DNA of 5,057 nt from a virus (taxonomy: Duplodnaviria; Heunggongvirae; Uroviricota; Caudoviricetes): the IMG/VR virus record IMGVR_UViG_3300029749_000526, one strand, 5' to 3'. Under the pieces are notes generated by a model. The model saw nothing but the letters and a program-made list of their open reading frames with translations. It did no database searches and was not told the origin of the DNA. The position numbers and the translations under genes were made by a program. Positions 1,357 through 5,057 of this stretch are shown here, piece by piece (positions within the stretch are counted from its first letter, which is position 1; each line of letters starts with the position of its first letter).

Positions 1357-1367
1357 GTGGAGTGGAT

Positions 1368-3764
1368 ATGGCAGCAGTAAAAATCTCAGGTGTGCTGAAA
1401 GATGGTGCGGGAAAACCAATACAGAACTGCACTATTCAACTGAAGGCAAAGCGTAACAGCACCACGGTACTGGTGAACACGGTGGCTTCTGAAAATCCGG
1501 ATGAAGCCGGACGTTACAGCATGGATGTTGAGTATGGCCAGTACAGCGTCACCCTGCTGGTTGAAGGTTTTCCGCCTTCACATGCCGGGACCATTACCGT
1601 CTATGAAGGTTCCAGACCAGGTACGCTGAATGATTTTCTCGGTGCCATGACGGAAGATGATGTCATGCCGGAGGCATTGCGCCGTTTTGAGGCAATGGTG
1701 GAAGAAGCGGCACGCAACGCCGAAGCCGCCTCTCAGAGCGCAGCGGCGGCAAAGAAATCCGAAACTGCAGCGGCATCATCGAAGAACGCGGCGAAAACCT
1801 CAGAAACGAATGCAGCTAACAGCGCACAGGCGGCAGCGGCCTCGCAGACTGCATCGGCAAACTCCGCGACAGCAGCCAAAAAATCAGAAACCAACGCGAA
1901 AAATAGCGAGACAGCCGCAAAGACGAGCGAAACCAACGCAAAGTCCAGCCAGACGGCAGCGAAGACCAGCGAAACGAATGCCAAAGCCAGCGAAACTGCG
2001 GCGAAAAGCAGTCAGGATGCAGCAGCTGAAAGCGAGAGTGCCGCAGCTGGTTCTGCGACTTCAGCAGCTGGATCAGCAACTGCTGCGGCTAACAGCCAGA
2101 AAGCAGCGAAGACGAGCGAAACCAACGCAAAGTCCAGCCAGACGGCAGCGAAGACCAGCGAAACGAATGCCAAAGCCAGCGAAACTGCGGCGAAAAGCAG
2201 TCAGGATGCAGCAGCTGAAAGCGAGAGTGCCGCAGCTGGTTCTGCAAGTGCGGCGGCTGCTTCTGCCACTGCATCAGCAAACAGTCAAAAAGCTGCAAAA
2301 ACCAGTGAAACCAACGCAAAGGCGAGCGAGACTGCGGCGGCTAACTCGGCGCAAGCATCGGCAGCAAGCCAGACAGCAGCTAAAGCAAGTGAAGACGCAG
2401 CCAGAGAGTATGCAAGTCAGGCAGCAGAGCCGTATAAATATGTCTTACAGCCACTGCCTGATGTGTGGATACCGTTTAACGATTCACTGGAAATGATTAC
2501 TGGTTTCGCCCCAGGTTATAAAAAAGTCACTATCGGTGATGATGTTATTACTTTTCCATCAGAGAAGGTTGTATCTTTCACCCGCTCTACTTCTGCAACA
2601 TATATAAACAAATCAGGTTCGTTTACTTTTGCAGAAATTAACGAGCCGCGCTTTGAAAAGGAAGGTTTATTAATTGAAGGTCAGAGGACAAATACATTTA
2701 CTAATAGCAATAATCCTTCATTATGGAACTATGACGACAAGAATATAGAAATAACCACATCGGTTGATGAATATGGTTTTAAATATGGTTTGTTCGATGT
2801 AAAGGAAACATCAACCACTGAAAGGGCGACGATAATATCTACTGGATACAGTAGGGTTATTGATGTTGCTGCAAATGAATCTGTTACCTTGTCCTGTAGG
2901 GTTAAGAAGATAAATGGAGAAGGTATTATAACGTTAAGACCCAGAATATCTTTCGTTAACGATGACGGCACAAGCAACACGCTGGTAGCTGGTTCCTACA
3001 TAGATTGCGAAACTGGTGATGTTTTAGGTTTTTCTGGTGGGGATGCTGTAAATCATGTCATATACAGAGAAGCTAACGGATGGTTACGCGTCGAATTTAC
3101 ATATAAATCACCAGAAGCAAAAAGCATGTATGGGCGCTTTGAAATGGGAGCAGATAAAAGGGCGATCAAAAAAGGCGATCAGATAATGTTTACTACGCCG
3201 CAATTTGAAAAAGGATCGTGTGCATCATCATTTATCGTTACATCAGATGTGGCAGTTACACGGGCTAGTGACGTGGTAATAATGCCAATAAGACTGAACT
3301 GGTCAACACCTCCGTTAAGCGTTCTTATGGAAGTTAATATCAACTGGGACAAAATGCCAAACAGTGAAGGTTCAGCAAGGCTTCTTAACGTGTCAATAAC
3401 TGGCGCAACAACGGATGTTGCTGATGAAAGTTATATGTATTTTGGTTTTACCTCTGGAGGCGCGCGCTCAATTATAACTAACGGAAAAGGAACAAAGACC
3501 GAGTATAAAGCCTACTGTAACAGGACAACCCGCAGGTTTATTGCTGGGTTTAAGTTTACAGAGCAGAAAGAATTGCGTGCTGTTATAAACGGTAACTTTG
3601 GCGCTGTTGGTGTATCACAACACACAAGACAACGTTATACAGAAGGGCCAATAAATATAGGCGGTCAATCAATATCAGGTAACAGGCATTTATTTGGACA
3701 CGTGCGCAATTTACGTATCTGGCATAAGGAACTGACAGATGCACAAATGGGAGAAAGAATATAA
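1368..3764 (+). CDS. stf: Side tail fibre protein (lambda Stf-like N-terminus and repetitive shaft, with a divergent C-terminal distal domain)
   Basis: Long ORF ending at TAA 3762-3764. I place the start at ATG 1368 (GGAG at 1359-1362, 5-nt spacer) rather than the in-frame GTG at 1362 used by the ORF track. The N-terminus (MAAVKISGVLKDGAGKPIQNCTIQLKA…RYSMDVEYGQYSV…GFPPSHAGTITVYE) matches my recollection of the lambda Stf N-terminal region. The central region is Ala/Ser/Thr-rich with reiterated KTSETNAK-type motifs, typical of fibre shafts. The C-terminal ~440 aa are compositionally distinct and not lambda-like. Confidence 0.85.
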   Translation: MAAVKISGVLKDGAGKPIQNCTIQLKAKRNSTTVLVNTVASENPDEAGRYSMDVEYGQYSVTLLVEGFPPSHAGTITVYEGSRPGTLNDFLGAMTEDDVMPEALRRFEAMVEEAARNAEAASQSAAAAKKSETAAASSKNAAKTSETNAANSAQAAAASQTASANSATAAKKSETNAKNSETAAKTSETNAKSSQTAAKTSETNAKASETAAKSSQDAAAESESAAAGSATSAAGSATAAANSQKAAKTSETNAKSSQTAAKTSETNAKASETAAKSSQDAAAESESAAAGSASAAAASATASANSQKAAKTSETNAKASETAAANSAQASAASQTAAKASEDAAREYASQAAEPYKYVLQPLPDVWIPFNDSLEMITGFAPGYKKVTIGDDVITFPSEKVVSFTRSTSATYINKSGSFTFAEINEPRFEKEGLLIEGQRTNTFTNSNNPSLWNYDDKNIEITTSVDEYGFKYGLFDVKETSTTERATIISTGYSRVIDVAANESVTLSCRVKKINGEGIITLRPRISFVNDDGTSNTLVAGSYIDCETGDVLGFSGGDAVNHVIYREANGWLRVEFTYKSPEAKSMYGRFEMGADKRAIKKGDQIMFTTPQFEKGSCASSFIVTSDVAVTRASDVVIMPIRLNWSTPPLSVLMEVNINWDKMPNSEGSARLLNVSITGATTDVADESYMYFGFTSGGARSIITNGKGTKTEYKAYCNRTTRRFIAGFKFTEQKELRAVINGNFGAVGVSQHTRQRYTEGPINIGGQSISGNRHLFGHVRNLRIWHKELTDAQMGERI
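1920..2245 (+). repeat. In-frame tandem direct duplication inside the stf shaft region (two copies of about 137 bp at a 189-bp period)
   Basis: The segment about 1920-2056 (…gacgagcgaaaccaacgcaaagtccagccagacggcagcgaagaccagcgaaacgaatgccaaagccagcgaaactgcggcgaaaagcagtcaggatgcagcagctgaaagcgagagtgccgcagctggttctgc) recurs at about 2109-2245 with apparent nucleotide identity. It encodes AKTSETNAKSSQTAAKTSETNAKASETAAKSSQDAAAESESAAAGSA twice. The 189-bp period equals 63 codons, so frame is preserved. Confidence 0.8.
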
Positions 3765-4045
3765 TGCGAGACTTAACCCTCAAATTCATAAACAAGGCCG
3801 ACTTTTCGGCCTTTATGGATAGCATTGGTTATGAAGATGACGAGGTAATGCAGAACAATGTTCTCATTGATGTGATAGGTAACGTGTACAAAGAAACCGG
3901 AGAACTTACTGAAGATGGCGAACCGGTATGTGTTAAGGAAGACGGATATTTTGTAAACGTGCGCATCATTAATGATGTGAAAACACCGTCAATATTCGAT
4001 GAATACGTGGTTGCTGTTGAGCATCAACTTCGTGGCTGGATGTGA
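3764..4045 (+). CDS. Hypothetical small acidic protein (93 aa), translationally coupled to stf; possible fibre accessory or chaperone protein
   Basis: The ATG at 3764-3766 overlaps the stf TAA stop (ATAATG) by 1 nt. GGGAGA lies upstream at 3749-3754. The ORF ends at TGA 4043-4045. The translation has 19 Asp/Glu against 8 Lys/Arg (estimated net charge about -11). I recognise no family from the sequence alone. Confidence 0.55.
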   Translation: MRDLTLKFINKADFSAFMDSIGYEDDEVMQNNVLIDVIGNVYKETGELTEDGEPVCVKEDGYFVNVRIINDVKTPSIFDEYVVAVEHQLRGWM

Positions 4046-4054
4046 GGGAGACAA

Positions 4055-4756
4055 ATGGCTACATCGACAGTAATTCCAGGAGATATCACCACGCTAAAGG
4101 GAGATGTCAGTAAAACTAAGGAAGATATTTCCTCAATTAACGGAAAAGTATCAACGCTTCAGATTGATATGACCAGTGCAAAGCAGGATATCAGCACCAG
4201 ATACACAAAAACTGAAGTTGATAATAAGCTGAAAAACAAAGTGGAAGCGAACGATCTGGAAAGCGGTCGTTATGGCGGTGATTTTTACCCGCTGACAGGT
4301 CGTGAAGCGTTTTATTTATGGAATTTGGCCACGACTACAGCTGCGGCAAACCTTTATCTTAATCCTGACCCCGCAATTTCGTCTGTTCTGCGGTCAACAT
4401 CGTCTATCCGCTATAAACATTCAGTAGAGACGATAGATTCAGAGCACGCCGATCTCATTTTCAAGATGCGCCCTGTGTGGTACAGGTCGCAATGCGAAAA
4501 TGACAGGCGTGACTGGGGATTCTACGGATTGATTGCCGAGGAAGTAGGAGAAATTGCCCCTCAGTTTGTACACTGGCGACCAGCTAACGAAGATGATGCA
4601 CCGGAAGCTATTTCCAGCAATGGCCTTGTTGCCGAAGGTGTGATGTACGAACGTCTGGTTGTTCCACTGATTCACCATATCCAGAAACTGACAGAAAGAG
4701 TTGATGAACTTGAGTCAGAATTAAAGCTGTTATCAACTTCCCGAAGCGATATCTGA
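4055..4756 (+). CDS. Tail-fibre-like protein with an N-terminal coiled-coil segment and a C-terminal peptidase S74-like intramolecular chaperone domain
   Basis: AGGGAG Shine-Dalgarno at 4045-4050, 4 nt before ATG 4055. The C-terminal ~115 aa (SSIRYKHSVETIDSEHADLIFKMRPVWYRSQ…GFYGLIAEEVGEIAPQFVHW…GLVAEGVMYERLVVPLIHHIQKLTERVDELESELKLL) follow the pattern I recall for the S74 chaperone-of-endosialidase domain (SDxxLKxNI…L+PVxY…GxIAQEVxxxxPElV…, ending in a coiled-coil). The N-terminal ~100 aa (DITTLKGDVSKTKEDISSINGKVSTLQIDMTSAKQDIS…) are heptad-like. Confidence 0.75.
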   Translation: MATSTVIPGDITTLKGDVSKTKEDISSINGKVSTLQIDMTSAKQDISTRYTKTEVDNKLKNKVEANDLESGRYGGDFYPLTGREAFYLWNLATTTAAANLYLNPDPAISSVLRSTSSIRYKHSVETIDSEHADLIFKMRPVWYRSQCENDRRDWGFYGLIAEEVGEIAPQFVHWRPANEDDAPEAISSNGLVAEGVMYERLVVPLIHHIQKLTERVDELESELKLLSTSRSDI

Positions 4757-4769
4757 TAAAGGAGGAGTA

Positions 4770-5057
4770 ATGGATATAAGCCCCTTACTTCATGCGCTTT
4801 GTGCTGTGGCTGCGCAGGTACTGGTTGGTTTTTTTACCGGAAACTGGGCTTACGGGGCGATAGCCGGTTGTACATTCTTCATTGCGCGGGAACACACCCA
4901 GGCAGAATATCGCTGGATTGAAATGTTCGGGCATGGCAAGCGGATTAACATGCCATGGTGGGGCGGTTTTGATCCACGTGCATGGGATGTGGCAAGCCTG
5001 ATGGATTTTGCTGTGCCGGTGGTGGCGTGTCTGCTGATCTGGATGTTGATCCGTTAA
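4770..5057 (+). CDS. Hypothetical small membrane protein (95 aa, 2-3 predicted transmembrane segments); possible moron or superinfection-exclusion candidate
   Basis: Strong Shine-Dalgarno AAAGGAGGA at 4758-4766, 3 nt before ATG 4770. The ORF ends at TAA 5055-5057. Hydrophobic stretches at residues ~5-22 and ~26-39 (PLLHALCAVAAQVLVGFF, WAYGAIAGCTFFIA) and ~74-94 (VASLMDFAVPVVACLLIWMLI) are separated by a charged, Trp-rich loop (REHTQAEYRWIEMFGHGKRINMPWWGGFDPRAW). It starts 13 nt after the preceding gene. Confidence 0.6.
   Translation: MDISPLLHALCAVAAQVLVGFFTGNWAYGAIAGCTFFIAREHTQAEYRWIEMFGHGKRINMPWWGGFDPRAWDVASLMDFAVPVVACLLIWMLIR

What the first reader, a model, noticed from the sequence alone, without database searches (positions are those of the whole stretch)
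4770..5057. Small membrane protein at the distal end of the fibre module: candidate moron
This 95-aa ORF has one of the strongest ribosome-binding sites in the window, and its GC content appears higher than that of the AT-rich fibre tip upstream. It encodes 2-3 hydrophobic helices with a Trp/Arg-rich loop. The region just downstream of tail fibre genes in lambdoid prophages is a known site for morons, including entry-blocking and superinfection-exclusion proteins (for example cor in phi80/N15-type phages). A small inner-membrane protein here is a plausible exclusion or host-modifying factor, but no function can be read from the sequence.
Basis: inference. Interest (0 to 1): 0.5.

Follow-up and report, generated by a model that had tools for sequence, protein, structure and literature searches.

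The report
Membrane protein riding with tailspike genes
This is a real gene for a 95-residue inner-membrane protein from a widespread, unstudied family; in many unrelated phages it sits directly after the gene for the sugar-recognising tail spike or fibre, it also occurs alone in bacterial chromosomes, and it looks like an accessory rather than a virion part, though its function is untested.

Summary
ORF 4770-5057 (+) is intact, has the strongest Shine-Dalgarno site in the window, and encodes three hydrophobic helices plus a Trp/Arg-rich loop. The GC point is inverted: the ORF matches the phage backbone, and the fibre-tip genes upstream are the AT-rich outliers.

The protein belongs to PHROG 1443 (function unknown; no Pfam, NCBIfam, PADLOC or PDB relative). 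Homologues occur in 1900 of 5426 complete E. coli genomes and across alpha-, beta-, gamma- and deltaproteobacteria.

It is a discrete mosaic cassette: DNA homology to other lambdoid phages starts at its ribosome-binding site and ends at its stop codon. In lambda-, P2-, P1- and P22-like phages and in 80 environmental viral contigs it lies tightly coupled, usually 25 nt or less, downstream of a glycan-targeting receptor-binding gene. 33 of 64 upstream genes are pectate-lyase-type tailspikes.

It also stands alone among housekeeping genes (Aeromonas, sphingomonads) and is a pseudogene in virulent T1-like phages, so it is not a structural part. The invariant 34-residue loop is predicted to be cytoplasmic.

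Best guess (0.4): an accessory envelope- or exclusion-type factor linked to polysaccharide receptors. No promoter of its own was found, and the mechanism is unknown.

The parts
4758..4769 (+). Left edge of the mobile cassette, including the Shine-Dalgarno site AGGAGG (4760-4765)
   Evidence: DNA homology to phage 21, mEp460 and an E. ruysiae prophage begins at 4758, while the sequence upstream is unrelated. The SD duplex of -11.6 kcal/mol is the strongest in the window.
4770..5057 (+). CDS of the 95-aa membrane protein (PHROG 1443 family; 'Ybl63' in UniRef)
   Evidence: It is 100% identical in three E. coli chromosomes.
4779..4838 (+). Helix 1 (aa 4-23), a predicted transmembrane helix carrying the family-invariant His8 and conserved Gln16
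4845..4886 (+). Helix 2, membrane part (aa 26-39); it forms a hairpin with helix 1 through a 2-residue turn
   Evidence: There is a weak PhoR N-terminal hairpin resemblance in 8 of 115 members, best E = 0.003.
4887..4988 (+). Conserved loop (aa 40-73): an amphipathic helix REHTQAEYRWIEMF followed by GHGKRINMPWWGGFDPRAWD; predicted cytoplasmic
   Evidence: Across 115 diverse members, R40, E41, Q44, A45, E46 and W72 are at least 90% conserved, and Y47, R48, I50, R58 and P62 at least 75%. K+R counts are 6.0 on the N-terminus plus loop side against 0.8 on the other side, and this holds in 110 of 115 sequences. Hydrophobic moment of residues 40-53 is 0.51.
4989..5051 (+). Helix 3 (aa 74-94), a transmembrane helix with conserved Asp79 and invariant Pro83; no charged C-terminal tail
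4055..4756 (+). Upstream partner gene: a 233-aa tail-fibre protein with a C-terminal Peptidase_S74 intramolecular chaperone domain; its stop lies 13 nt before the ATG of the ORF
   Evidence: Pfam PF13884 at E = 3.7e-6 and PHROG 3299. The same S74-then-gene arrangement occurs in a Leclercia P2-like prophage, a T1-like phage and a Desulfovibrio prophage.
3764..4045 (+). orf93 (PHROG 1361), a small partner of the lectin-type side tail fibre; context only, not part of the cassette
   Evidence: It is found after fibre genes in 187 phage records, including T1-, T5- and rV5-like phages that lack the 95-aa gene.
1362..3764 (+). Side tail fibre (800 aa); its conserved N-terminal domain forms the left flank of the exchangeable fibre-tip region, of which the 95-aa gene is the right flank
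   Evidence: PF08400 phage_tail_N at E = 1e-66. The N-terminus is 72-80% identical and the tip 37-39% identical to phage 21 and relatives.

Best explanation
TIER 1 (largely shown; my confidence about 0.85). The ORF is a functional gene for a three-helix inner-membrane protein of a conserved, uncharacterised family (PHROG 1443). It is a self-contained accessory cassette made of its own strong ribosome-binding site plus the coding sequence. In phages it sits at the 3' end of genes for glycan-targeting receptor-binding proteins: depolymerase tailspikes, S74 fibres and lectin-type fibres. It is read from the same late transcript as those genes. It is not a virion or assembly component.

TIER 2 (inferred; about 0.4). 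Its function is directed at the host envelope and tied to the use of surface polysaccharides as receptors. Through its invariant loop at the cytoplasmic face of the inner membrane it would bind a target that is conserved across Proteobacteria, for example a generic step of polyprenyl-phosphate-linked glycan assembly. The cell that expresses it would then display less or altered receptor, or otherwise become refractory to adsorption and superinfection. In this reading it plays the same ecological role as the gtrABC, oac and polymerase-inhibitor genes that occupy the same slot next to tailspike genes. The chromosomal homologues would perform the same biochemical act for the cell.
For: REAL, CONSTRAINED GENE
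- Full-length PHROG match.
- 576 homologue clusters in the word-indexed search and 441 clusters at 50% identity in the exhaustive search, all stand-alone proteins of about 90-130 aa.
- dN/dS is 0.08-0.35 in most comparisons between E. coli alleles, with substitutions confined to helices 1 and 3.
- The AF2 model has pLDDT 93.

DISCRETE CASSETTE
- Homology to other phages runs only from 4758 to 5048, or to 5166 for mEp460.

ASSOCIATION WITH RECEPTOR-BINDING GENES IN INDEPENDENT LINEAGES
- Lambdoid phages.
- Leclercia P2-like prophage: 939-aa S74 fibre, then the gene with a gap of 0 nt.
- Halomonas phiHAP-1: tail fibre assembly gene, then the gene, then the sheath gene.
- P1-like phage.
- P22-like JEP4: the gene's start overlaps the tailspike stop, and the integrase gene follows.
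- P22-like 611R6: the gene lies beside an OafA O-acetylase gene.
- Citrobacter siphophage with a pectate-lyase spike.
- Aeromonas 234-kb phage AVP1, where the gene lies beside a beta-helix-like protein.

SYSTEMATIC TEST ON 80 DIVERSE IMG/VR CONTIGS
- 73 of 77 have a co-directional ORF ending within 150 nt upstream; the gap is 25 nt or less in 63 of those 73.
- Of 64 upstream ORFs of at least 100 aa, 33 carry PF12708 (pectate-lyase-like), 5 Beta_helix, 5 the endosialidase N-terminal extension, 3 S74 and 2 Peptidase_G2. PHROG labels are tail spike, pre-neck appendage and EPS depolymerase.

NOT STRUCTURAL
- Housekeeping neighbourhoods in Aeromonas (Pirin upstream, in four loci) and next to ligA, DAHP synthase and other housekeeping genes in other genomes.
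- Pseudogene in phage 6947 and relatives.
- orf93 and its fibre occur widely without this gene.

LOCATION AND TOPOLOGY
- The slot matches the known seroconversion slot between tailspike and int (gtrABC in epsilon34, PMC2629481). In epsilon15 a small two-TM polymerase inhibitor is encoded next to the tailspike gene.
- The loop is predicted cytoplasmic.
Against: - No experiment, and no homology to any protein of known function.
- No similarity to the epsilon15 polymerase inhibitor, Cor, N15 gp22 or HK97 gp15.
- No promoter of its own was detected. Tight coupling to a late structural gene is more typical of a lytic-cycle function, such as a chaperone or lysis factor, than of a prophage-expressed conversion gene.
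- An intact copy exists in a large Aeromonas phage, which I presume to be virulent.
- The family also occurs in sphingomonads, which by general knowledge lack LPS, so any target must be more general than O-antigen.
- In 20 of 80 environmental contigs, and in P1-like phages, the next gene is another membrane or holin-like protein. This equally suits a lysis role.
Confidence: 0.4

Rival explanations
1. Superinfection exclusion at the DNA-entry step. The protein sits in the inner membrane and blocks genome translocation of incoming phages, as HK97 gp15, P22 SieA and T4 Imm do.
For: - It is a small polytopic inner-membrane protein.
- It is encoded in temperate phages at the prophage end next to att or int.
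- It is the last gene of at least 35 of 80 predicted E. coli proviruses.
- It is decayed in virulent T1-like phages.
- It is very common in E. coli, with a median of 2 copies per positive genome.
Against: - No similarity to HK97 gp15 and no PADLOC hit.
- By general knowledge, known exclusion proteins are phage-group-specific and fast-evolving. This loop is near-invariant from E. coli to Sphingomonas and Desulfovibrio.
- This model does not explain the specific link to glycan-targeting spikes.
- No promoter for lysogenic expression was detected.
Confidence: 0.15
2. Host-type membrane protein carried passively. Its main evolutionary role in these phages would be as the conserved right-hand homology arm for swapping the host-range (fibre-tip) cassette, with the stf N-terminal domain as the left arm.
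For: - Homology boundaries are sharp, at its RBS and its stop codon, while the fibre tips between it and the stf N-terminus are unrelated or 37-39% identical.
- The gene is 90-96% identical at DNA level across 1900 E. coli genomes.
- Cargo (sitABCD) and remnants (tfa fragment, pin) insert just downstream.
- A remnant was dragged into T1-like phages together with an S74 spike.
Against: - Purifying selection acts at the protein level.
- The family is conserved across bacterial classes and in non-recombining contexts.
- The strong private RBS argues that the protein is made and matters.
- A linker role can coexist with a biochemical one, so it is not a true alternative.
Confidence: 0.15
3. Lysis-associated membrane protein: a holin partner, an antiholin, or a lysis-timing or membrane-stability factor made late together with the spike.
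For: - It is co-transcribed with, and tightly coupled to, late genes.
- In 20 of 80 environmental contigs the overlapping next gene is a PHROG 1544 protein with C-terminal hydrophobic segments.
- In the P1-like phage it directly precedes LydA-like and LydB genes.
- In Aeromonas phage 62AhydR11PP it follows PHROG 3108 and PHROG 1544 genes.
- Epsilon15 has an unrelated three-TM protein just upstream of its holin.
- One family member gave a weak Phage_holin_8 hit at E = 0.004.
Against: - Lambdoid and P22-like carriers have complete lysis cassettes elsewhere; the window contains none.
- There is no charged C-terminal tail (sequence), and the conserved 34-residue loop is unlike holins.
- Chromosomal single-copy homologues exist.
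- PHROG 1544 has no annotated function and its relatives have no Pfam domain, so calling it 'holin-like' is only my reading of the sequence.
Confidence: 0.12
4. Maturation or assembly helper of the adjacent spike or fibre: a membrane-anchored chaperone or docking site.
For: - The position immediately downstream of, and translationally coupled to, the receptor-binding gene is the canonical chaperone position.
- The conserved loop would face the cytoplasm, where spikes fold.
Against: - It accompanies unrelated folds: P22 head-binding spike, pectate-lyase spikes, S74 fibres and lectin-type fibres, the last of which already have orf93.
- S74 and G2 domains are themselves intramolecular chaperones, per their Pfam descriptions.
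- It is a pseudogene next to an intact spike in viable T1-like phages.
- It is absent from most phages with these spikes.
- It occurs free-standing in chromosomes.
Confidence: 0.08

Closest known systems
PHROG 1443 (function unknown; UniRef name 'Ybl63'; phage 21 CPT_21_24 'putative membrane protein')
   Same: This is the family itself. The profile match is full-length, 1-95 of 97 positions, at E = 6e-57. The protein is 92.6% identical to the phage 21 protein.
   Different: Nothing is known about the family. No paper mentions it, and there is no Pfam, NCBIfam or PADLOC model.
Seroconversion genes next to tailspike genes: epsilon15 gp22 (alpha-polymerase inhibitor, 2 TM) and gp21; P22 and epsilon34 gtrABC; Sf6-type oac
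   Same: - These are small or polytopic inner-membrane proteins encoded beside the gene for an O-antigen-specific spike, in the slot between spike and int (PMC2629481).
- The 95-aa gene sits beside an OafA acetylase gene in phage 611R6.
   Different: - No sequence relation to gp22 or gp23.
- The epsilon15 genes lie on the opposite strand, behind a terminator, whereas this gene is co-directional and coupled.
- This family is conserved across bacterial classes and has chromosomal copies.
- No glycan phenotype has been shown.
Cor (N15, phi80, T1) and T5 Llp: receptor-masking proteins encoded beside receptor-binding genes
   Same: The position downstream of tail tip or fibre genes. The role is non-structural.
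   Different: - No similarity.
- By general knowledge, Cor and Llp act at the outer membrane on FhuA.
- This protein has no lipobox, has three helices, and has a loop predicted to be cytoplasmic.
Inner-membrane superinfection-exclusion proteins (HK97 gp15, P22 SieA, T4 Imm)
   Same: Small inner-membrane proteins carried as morons in or beside tail gene clusters.
   Different: - No similarity to gp15. gp15 is 62 aa with one hydrophobic segment and is annotated with a putative terminator on each side.
- SieA and Imm were not compared.
Tail-fibre assembly partners encoded just downstream of fibre genes (lambda Tfa type; orf93 / PHROG 1361 in this window)
   Same: The position, and the translational coupling to the receptor-binding gene.
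   Different: - Those partners are soluble and co-vary with their fibre.
- orf93 follows fibres in 187 phage records without needing this gene.
- This protein is membrane-embedded, independent of fibre type, and dispensable.

Membership tests
PHROG 1443 / 'Ybl63' family | Full-length match to the family profile | tested here: met
   E = 6.3e-57, residues 1-95 on profile positions 1-95 of 97.
PHROG 1443 / 'Ybl63' family | Family signature residues: H8, R40-E41, Q44-A45-E46, W72, D79, P83 | tested here: met
   All are present in the window protein. All but D79 (91 of 115) are conserved in at least 90% of 115 diverse members.
Moron (Hendrix/Juhala sense) | Extra gene present in some and absent from other otherwise syntenic phages | tested here: met
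   - 72 phage records carry it, against 187 that carry the neighbouring orf93.
- It follows the tailspike gene in JEP4 but not in epsilon15.
- Its mosaic edges lie at its RBS and its stop codon.
Moron (Hendrix/Juhala sense) | Own promoter upstream | tested here: not met
   No sigma-70-like site on the + strand between 3760 and 4770, and the gap to the upstream gene is 13 nt. This was a consensus scan only, so a weak or non-canonical promoter is not excluded.
Moron (Hendrix/Juhala sense) | Terminator downstream | tested here: inconclusive
   A stable hairpin (-21.5 kcal/mol, z = -3.9) lies 18 nt after the stop in the identical E. coli locus, but its T-run is on the minus strand. It lies outside the window.
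Moron (Hendrix/Juhala sense) | Base composition deviating from the surrounding phage genes | tested here: not met
   The ORF is 52.4% GC, equal to the J, lom and stf N-terminal backbone (50.5-54.5%). The fibre tip is the outlier.
Moron (Hendrix/Juhala sense) | Expression from the repressed prophage | not testable with these tools
   Needs RNA-seq or 5'-RACE of a lysogen.
Cor / Llp receptor-masking proteins | Sequence similarity to Cor | tested here: not met
   hhalign against N15 Cor gave probability 0.2%.
Cor / Llp receptor-masking proteins | Export signal, lipobox and periplasm- or outer-membrane-facing active part | tested here: not met
   There is no lipobox cysteine motif after helix 1 (sequence). 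The positive-inside rule places the conserved loop in the cytoplasm in 110 of 115 members. Topology is predicted, not measured.
HK97 gp15-type inner-membrane exclusion proteins | Sequence similarity | tested here: not met
   hhalign gave probability 0.3%.
HK97 gp15-type inner-membrane exclusion proteins | Blocks DNA entry of superinfecting phage | not testable with these tools
   Needs a phage challenge of an expressing strain.
Epsilon15-type O-antigen polymerase inhibitor | Sequence similarity to gp22 | tested here: not met
   hhalign gave probability 0.04%.
Epsilon15-type O-antigen polymerase inhibitor | Small membrane protein encoded beside an O-antigen-specific tailspike gene | tested here: met
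   JEP4, 611R6 and Citrobacter prophage contexts, plus 33 of 64 upstream PF12708 spikes. This concerns position only, not function.
Holins (class I) | Three TM helices, a charged cytoplasmic C-terminal tail, and adjacency to an endolysin gene | tested here: not met
   - It has three helices, but the protein ends one residue after helix 3.
- The predicted topology is N-in, C-out.
- No lysis gene lies in the window.
- Adjacency to LydA-like or PHROG 1544 genes is seen only in other phages.
Virion or fibre-assembly component | Co-inheritance with one fibre type, and indispensability | tested here: not met
   - It follows at least four unrelated receptor-binding folds.
- It is a pseudogene beside an intact spike.
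- Chromosomal homologues exist.

The most novel reading that the evidence does not exclude
The family is a miniature, oligomeric inner-membrane regulator or enzyme. It would act at the cytoplasmic face on a universal step of polyprenyl-phosphate-linked glycan assembly. Phages that recognise polysaccharides with depolymerase spikes would have captured it repeatedly as a generic 'receptor shut-off' or seroconversion factor. That would be a new class of phage-host interface protein with cellular counterparts that tune envelope glycan synthesis.
Probability: 0.12. Interest if true: 0.75.

Novelty: new variant of a known kind. Interest (0 to 1): 0.45.

Why it matters
Small accessory genes beside receptor-binding genes decide who can infect whom. 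Cor, Llp, gtr, oac and the polymerase inhibitors are examples.

This family is far more widespread than any of those. It is found in about a third of complete E. coli genomes and in hundreds of environmental viral contigs. It occurs in four or more temperate phage lineages and in bacterial chromosomes. No function has been assigned to it.

Its specific, tight linkage to polysaccharide-targeting spikes gives a concrete hypothesis that can be tested cheaply. The result would be relevant to three things:
- predicting phage host range;
- designing depolymerase-bearing therapeutic phages;
- understanding serotype and capsule variation driven by prophages.

If the protein turns out to be only a late lysis or housekeeping factor, the result is still useful: a very common 'hypothetical protein' would gain an annotation.

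Tried and rejected
DIRECT HOMOLOGY TO KNOWN FUNCTIONS: nothing found.
- Pfam, NCBIfam and PADLOC on the protein.
- Pfam on 115 family members at E up to 1. This gave only weak PhoR N-terminal hairpin hits (8 members), VirB3 (5) and single noise hits.
- PDB sequence profiles.

FOLD SEARCHES with the pLDDT-93 model gave only generic helical matches.
- Foldseek against BFVD and against PDB: no hit at E <= 0.001.
- AFDB50 was unavailable.

PAIRWISE PROFILE COMPARISONS were all negative: N15 gp22, N15 Cor, HK97 gp15, epsilon15 gp22 and epsilon15 gp23.

P2 Fun(Z) was rejected as an analogue. It is 528 aa and lies on the other strand.

SEARCH FOR A CONSERVED PARTNER GENE across 63 loci: none beyond lineage-specific neighbours.

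S74 DOMAIN AS A UNIVERSAL UPSTREAM PARTNER: only 4 of about 69 loci, so this idea was rejected in favour of 'glycan-targeting receptor-binding proteins in general'.

'PHROG 1544 = GTA-type holin' was my recollection. Its 116 relatives carry no Pfam domain and it has no PDB relative, so the idea is kept only as an unverified reading.

UPSTREAM REGIONS OF THE CHROMOSOMAL COPIES were inspected for regulatory boxes. Nothing was recognisable.

RNA ELEMENTS: no Rfam family or tRNA downstream.

LITERATURE:
- No paper on 'Ybl63'.
- Tai, Kapi1 and Hf4s papers were read and found not to concern this family.
Full report
**1. The observation**

The window carries the distal tail region of a lambdoid prophage:
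- the C-terminal receptor-binding domain of J (13-636, PF12421);
- lom (704-1303);
- an 800-aa side tail fibre (1362-3764, phage_tail_N);
- a 93-aa ORF (3764-4045, PHROG 1361);
- a 233-aa fibre protein with a Peptidase_S74 chaperone domain (4055-4756);
- the ORF in question (4770-5057).

The ORF is intact: ATG start, 95 codons, and a TAA stop that forms the last three bases of the window. Its AGGAGG box lies 4 nt before the ATG and pairs with the 16S rRNA tail at -11.6 kcal/mol. That is the minimum over the whole window; the other genes give -6.3 to -8.5.

The ORF is 52.4% GC, against 40-45% for the three genes upstream. But J, lom and the N-terminal half of stf are 50.5-54.5%. The AT-rich fibre tip is therefore the compositional outlier, not this ORF.

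Hydropathy shows segments at residues 4-24, 25-40 and 74-95. AlphaFold2 on a 38-sequence alignment gave pLDDT 93.2 with helices 4-23, 26-53 and 74-94.

**2. It is a real gene of a large, unnamed family**

- It matches PHROG 1443 (unknown function) end to end at E = 6e-57.
- Pfam, NCBIfam, PADLOC and PDB sequence searches find nothing.
- The only name any source gives is 'Ybl63', or 'putative membrane protein' in phage 21. No paper mentions it.
- DNA homologues at 90-95% identity occur in 1900 of 5426 complete E. coli genomes, with a median of two copies per positive genome and 57 places on plasmids.
- Protein homologues occur in Salmonella, Citrobacter, Enterobacter, Leclercia, Aeromonas, Comamonas, Acidovorax, Halomonas, Sphingomonas and relatives, Devosia and Desulfovibrio.
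- An exhaustive profile search finds 441 clusters at 50% identity, all stand-alone proteins of about 90-130 aa.
- Across 115 diverse members, H8, R40, E41, Q44, A45, E46, W72 and P83 are at least 90% conserved. Y47, R48, I50, R58, P62 and D79 are at least 75% conserved. The helices otherwise vary.
- Among nine E. coli alleles dN/dS is 0.08-0.35 in most comparisons, and every substitution but one lies outside residues 23-72.

**3. Predicted topology**

The N-terminus plus the 40-73 loop carry on average 6.0 Lys+Arg. The 24-25 turn plus the C-terminus carry 0.8. This asymmetry holds in 110 of 115 sequences. The positive-inside rule therefore predicts N-in, loop 40-73 cytoplasmic, C-out. Residues 40-53 form an amphipathic helix (hydrophobic moment 0.51). 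This is a prediction, not a measurement. If it is right, masking of an outer-membrane receptor in the manner of Cor or Llp is excluded.

**4. It is a self-contained cassette**

DNA homology between the window and phage 21, an E. ruysiae prophage and others starts at 4758, which is the ribosome-binding site, and ends at 5048. For mEp460 it runs to 109 nt beyond the stop. Upstream, the sequences are unrelated.

What precedes the gene in E. coli varies. It is either orf93-like directly (phage 21, mEp460, strains 81009 and B20123) or an additional S74 fibre (the window, DA33137).

What follows also varies:
- an att-site remnant and host genes;
- sitABCD cargo on the other strand;
- dinI and int;
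- a tfa fragment and pin.

In at least 35 of 80 E. coli proviruses from IMG/VR the predicted provirus ends 3-9 nt after this gene.

No promoter-like or terminator-like site lies between the S74 fibre gene and the ORF, and the gap is 13 nt. A stable hairpin follows the stop in the identical chromosome, but its T-run is on the other strand.

**5. The key contextual result: it travels with glycan-targeting receptor-binding genes**

Outside the lambdoids the gene lies immediately after:
- a 939-aa S74 fibre in a Leclercia P2-like prophage, with a gap of 0 nt;
- the tail-fibre assembly gene of Halomonas phage phiHAP-1, upstream of the sheath gene;
- the Laminin_G_3 fibres of a P1-like phage, upstream of LydA-like and LydB genes;
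- the head-binding tailspike of the P22-like phage JEP4, overlapping its stop, with int next;
- a tailspike plus an OafA O-acetylase gene in the P22-like phage 611R6;
- a pectate-lyase spike in a Citrobacter prophage;
- a giant J-like protein in Comamonas.

In the 234-kb Aeromonas phage AVP1 an intact copy sits just upstream of a 758-aa beta-helix-like protein.

To move beyond anecdotes I scanned IMG/VR with a diverse alignment. There were more than 552 confirmed matches, and 80 loci were kept.
- In 73 of 77 usable loci a co-directional ORF ends within 150 nt upstream.
- In 63 of those 73 the gap is 25 nt or less, often with a 1- or 4-nt overlap.
- Of 64 upstream ORFs of at least 100 aa, 33 carry the pectate-lyase-like PF12708 domain, 5 Beta_helix, 5 the endosialidase N-terminal extension, 3 Peptidase_S74 and 2 Peptidase_G2.
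- PHROGs label them tail spike, pre-neck appendage or EPS depolymerase.

Such spikes are about one gene per phage, so this adjacency is far above chance. That last step is inference; I did not run a formal background test.

**6. It is not a structural or assembly component**

- Chromosomal homologues lie among housekeeping genes. In Aeromonas the order is Pirin, then the gene, then a RIO1-type kinase and two lipid A acyltransferase genes on the other strand. The same Pirin neighbour is found in four loci from A. aquatica, A. media (two strains) and A. rivipollensis.
- In other genomes the upstream neighbour is ligA (three loci), DAHP synthase, a PNPase-type gene, peptidase M3 and so on.
- No partner gene is conserved across 63 loci.
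- In the T1-like phage 6947, which I presume to be virulent, and in four further phage records with the same partial match, an intact S74 spike is followed by a decayed copy with a frameshift and an in-frame stop.
- orf93, the small ORF after the lectin-type fibre, occurs in 187 phage records including T1-, T5- and rV5-like phages. The 95-aa gene occurs in only 72.

**7. What it most likely does**

Shown: it is a constrained, membrane-embedded, accessory cassette co-expressed with glycan-specific receptor-binding genes.

Inferred: the slot it occupies is the one used by seroconversion genes. Examples are gtrABC after the epsilon34 and P22 tailspike genes (PMC2629481), and the polymerase and its two-TM inhibitor beside the epsilon15 spike gene. 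The near-invariance of the loop, irrespective of spike type and host class, argues for a generic conserved target at the cytoplasmic face rather than a serotype-specific one. My best guess is therefore a host-envelope-directed factor that limits or alters polysaccharide receptor supply, or otherwise makes the expressing cell refractory. I give this 0.4.

Points that weigh against it:
- no promoter of its own was detected;
- tight coupling to a late gene is more typical of a lytic-cycle function;
- an intact copy exists in a large Aeromonas phage;
- the family is present in sphingomonads;
- it is frequently adjacent to other membrane or holin-like genes (PHROG 1544 in 20 of 80 contigs, LydA-like in P1-like phages).

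The rivals are DNA-entry exclusion (0.15), a passively carried host gene serving as a recombination anchor (0.15), a lysis-associated role (0.12) and a spike maturation helper (0.08).

**8. Comparison with known systems**

Membership is established only for PHROG 1443. Profile comparisons with N15 Cor, N15 gp22, HK97 gp15, epsilon15 gp22 and epsilon15 gp23 are all negative. P2 Fun(Z) is a 528-aa protein on the other strand. As a 'moron' it meets the presence/absence criterion, fails the own-promoter and deviant-composition criteria, and is inconclusive for a terminator.

**9. Verdict**

The added value is the discovery that this very common hypothetical protein is a specific, tightly coupled companion of polysaccharide-targeting spikes and fibres across phage lineages, and that it has cellular homologues. 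It is a new variant of a known kind, namely receptor-module accessory membrane proteins. Interest is moderate (0.45) because the function remains untested.

Noticed in passing
window 1362-3764 (repeat array 1887-2339): The 800-aa side-tail-fibre ORF is intact in the window. It contains a 189-nt unit repeated 2.3 times, with nested 42- and 21-nt periods, encoding an Ala/Ser/Thr/Lys-rich segment; AT skew reaches 0.75 there. In the 100% identical RefSeq chromosome, PGAP splits this ORF into a 'missing C-terminus' pseudogene, a minus-strand hypothetical gene and two further CDSs. This looks like an annotation artefact caused by the repeats.
   Followed up: partly
window 3764-4045: orf93 (PHROG 1361, no Pfam) follows tail-fibre genes in 187 phage records, including T1-like, T5-like, rV5-like and Dhillonvirus phages and P1-like prophages. 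It looks like a widespread, unnamed fibre partner or chaperone of lectin-type (Laminin_G_3 / 'head spike fibre domain') fibres.
   Followed up: partly
window 4055-4756: This fibre protein is unusually short (233 aa), consisting of little more than an N-terminal adaptor plus an S74 chaperone domain. Residues 1-32 recur at the N-terminus of a different 346-aa protein at the same position in an E. ruysiae prophage (L005). This suggests a conserved docking peptide with exchangeable tips.
   Followed up: no
L001 9373-9410 and 9402-9467 (18-110 nt beyond the window end): A stable hairpin (-21.5 kcal/mol) follows the stop codon, with its T-run on the minus strand. A 65-nt segment that starts inside it recurs in phage 21 and in another prophage only after the inserted sitABCD cargo. 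The cargo therefore appears to have been inserted at or within this hairpin.
   Followed up: partly
L001 about 9715-9770 (outside the window): A sequence that looks like the 3' part of a tRNA (…GGTTCAAATCCCCCTCTCTCCGCCA) lies about 400 nt after the gene, before yodB and zinT. It is probably the att-site duplication that marks the prophage end. ARAGORN and Rfam call nothing there.
   Followed up: partly
L175, L187, L216 and 17 other IMG/VR loci; L085 2993-3493: A protein of about 160 aa from PHROG 1544 (unknown function; soluble N-terminal part plus C-terminal hydrophobic segments) overlaps the 3' end of the 95-aa-family gene in 20 of 80 environmental contigs, and precedes it in Aeromonas phage 62AhydR11PP. 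Its 116 relatives carry no Pfam domain. It is a possible functional partner or lysis protein.
   Followed up: partly
L074 8970-9518; L085 2499-2993; L024: PHROG 3108 proteins (unknown function; the motif '…GLQESR…' is reminiscent of lytic transglycosylases, though that is my reading only) recur 0.2-0.7 kb from the gene in Comamonas prophages and in an Aeromonas phage.
   Followed up: no
L075 8473-11645: In Aeromonas the chromosomal homologue is convergent with a RIO1-type kinase gene and two lipid A acyltransferase genes. This is a weak hint of an envelope or LPS connection.
   Followed up: no
window 4788-4904 (aa 7-45): 8 of 115 family members give weak hits (best E = 0.003) to Pfam PF11808, the N-terminal membrane hairpin of PhoR. 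The cause is probably compositional, but the match agrees with an N-in hairpin topology.
   Followed up: no
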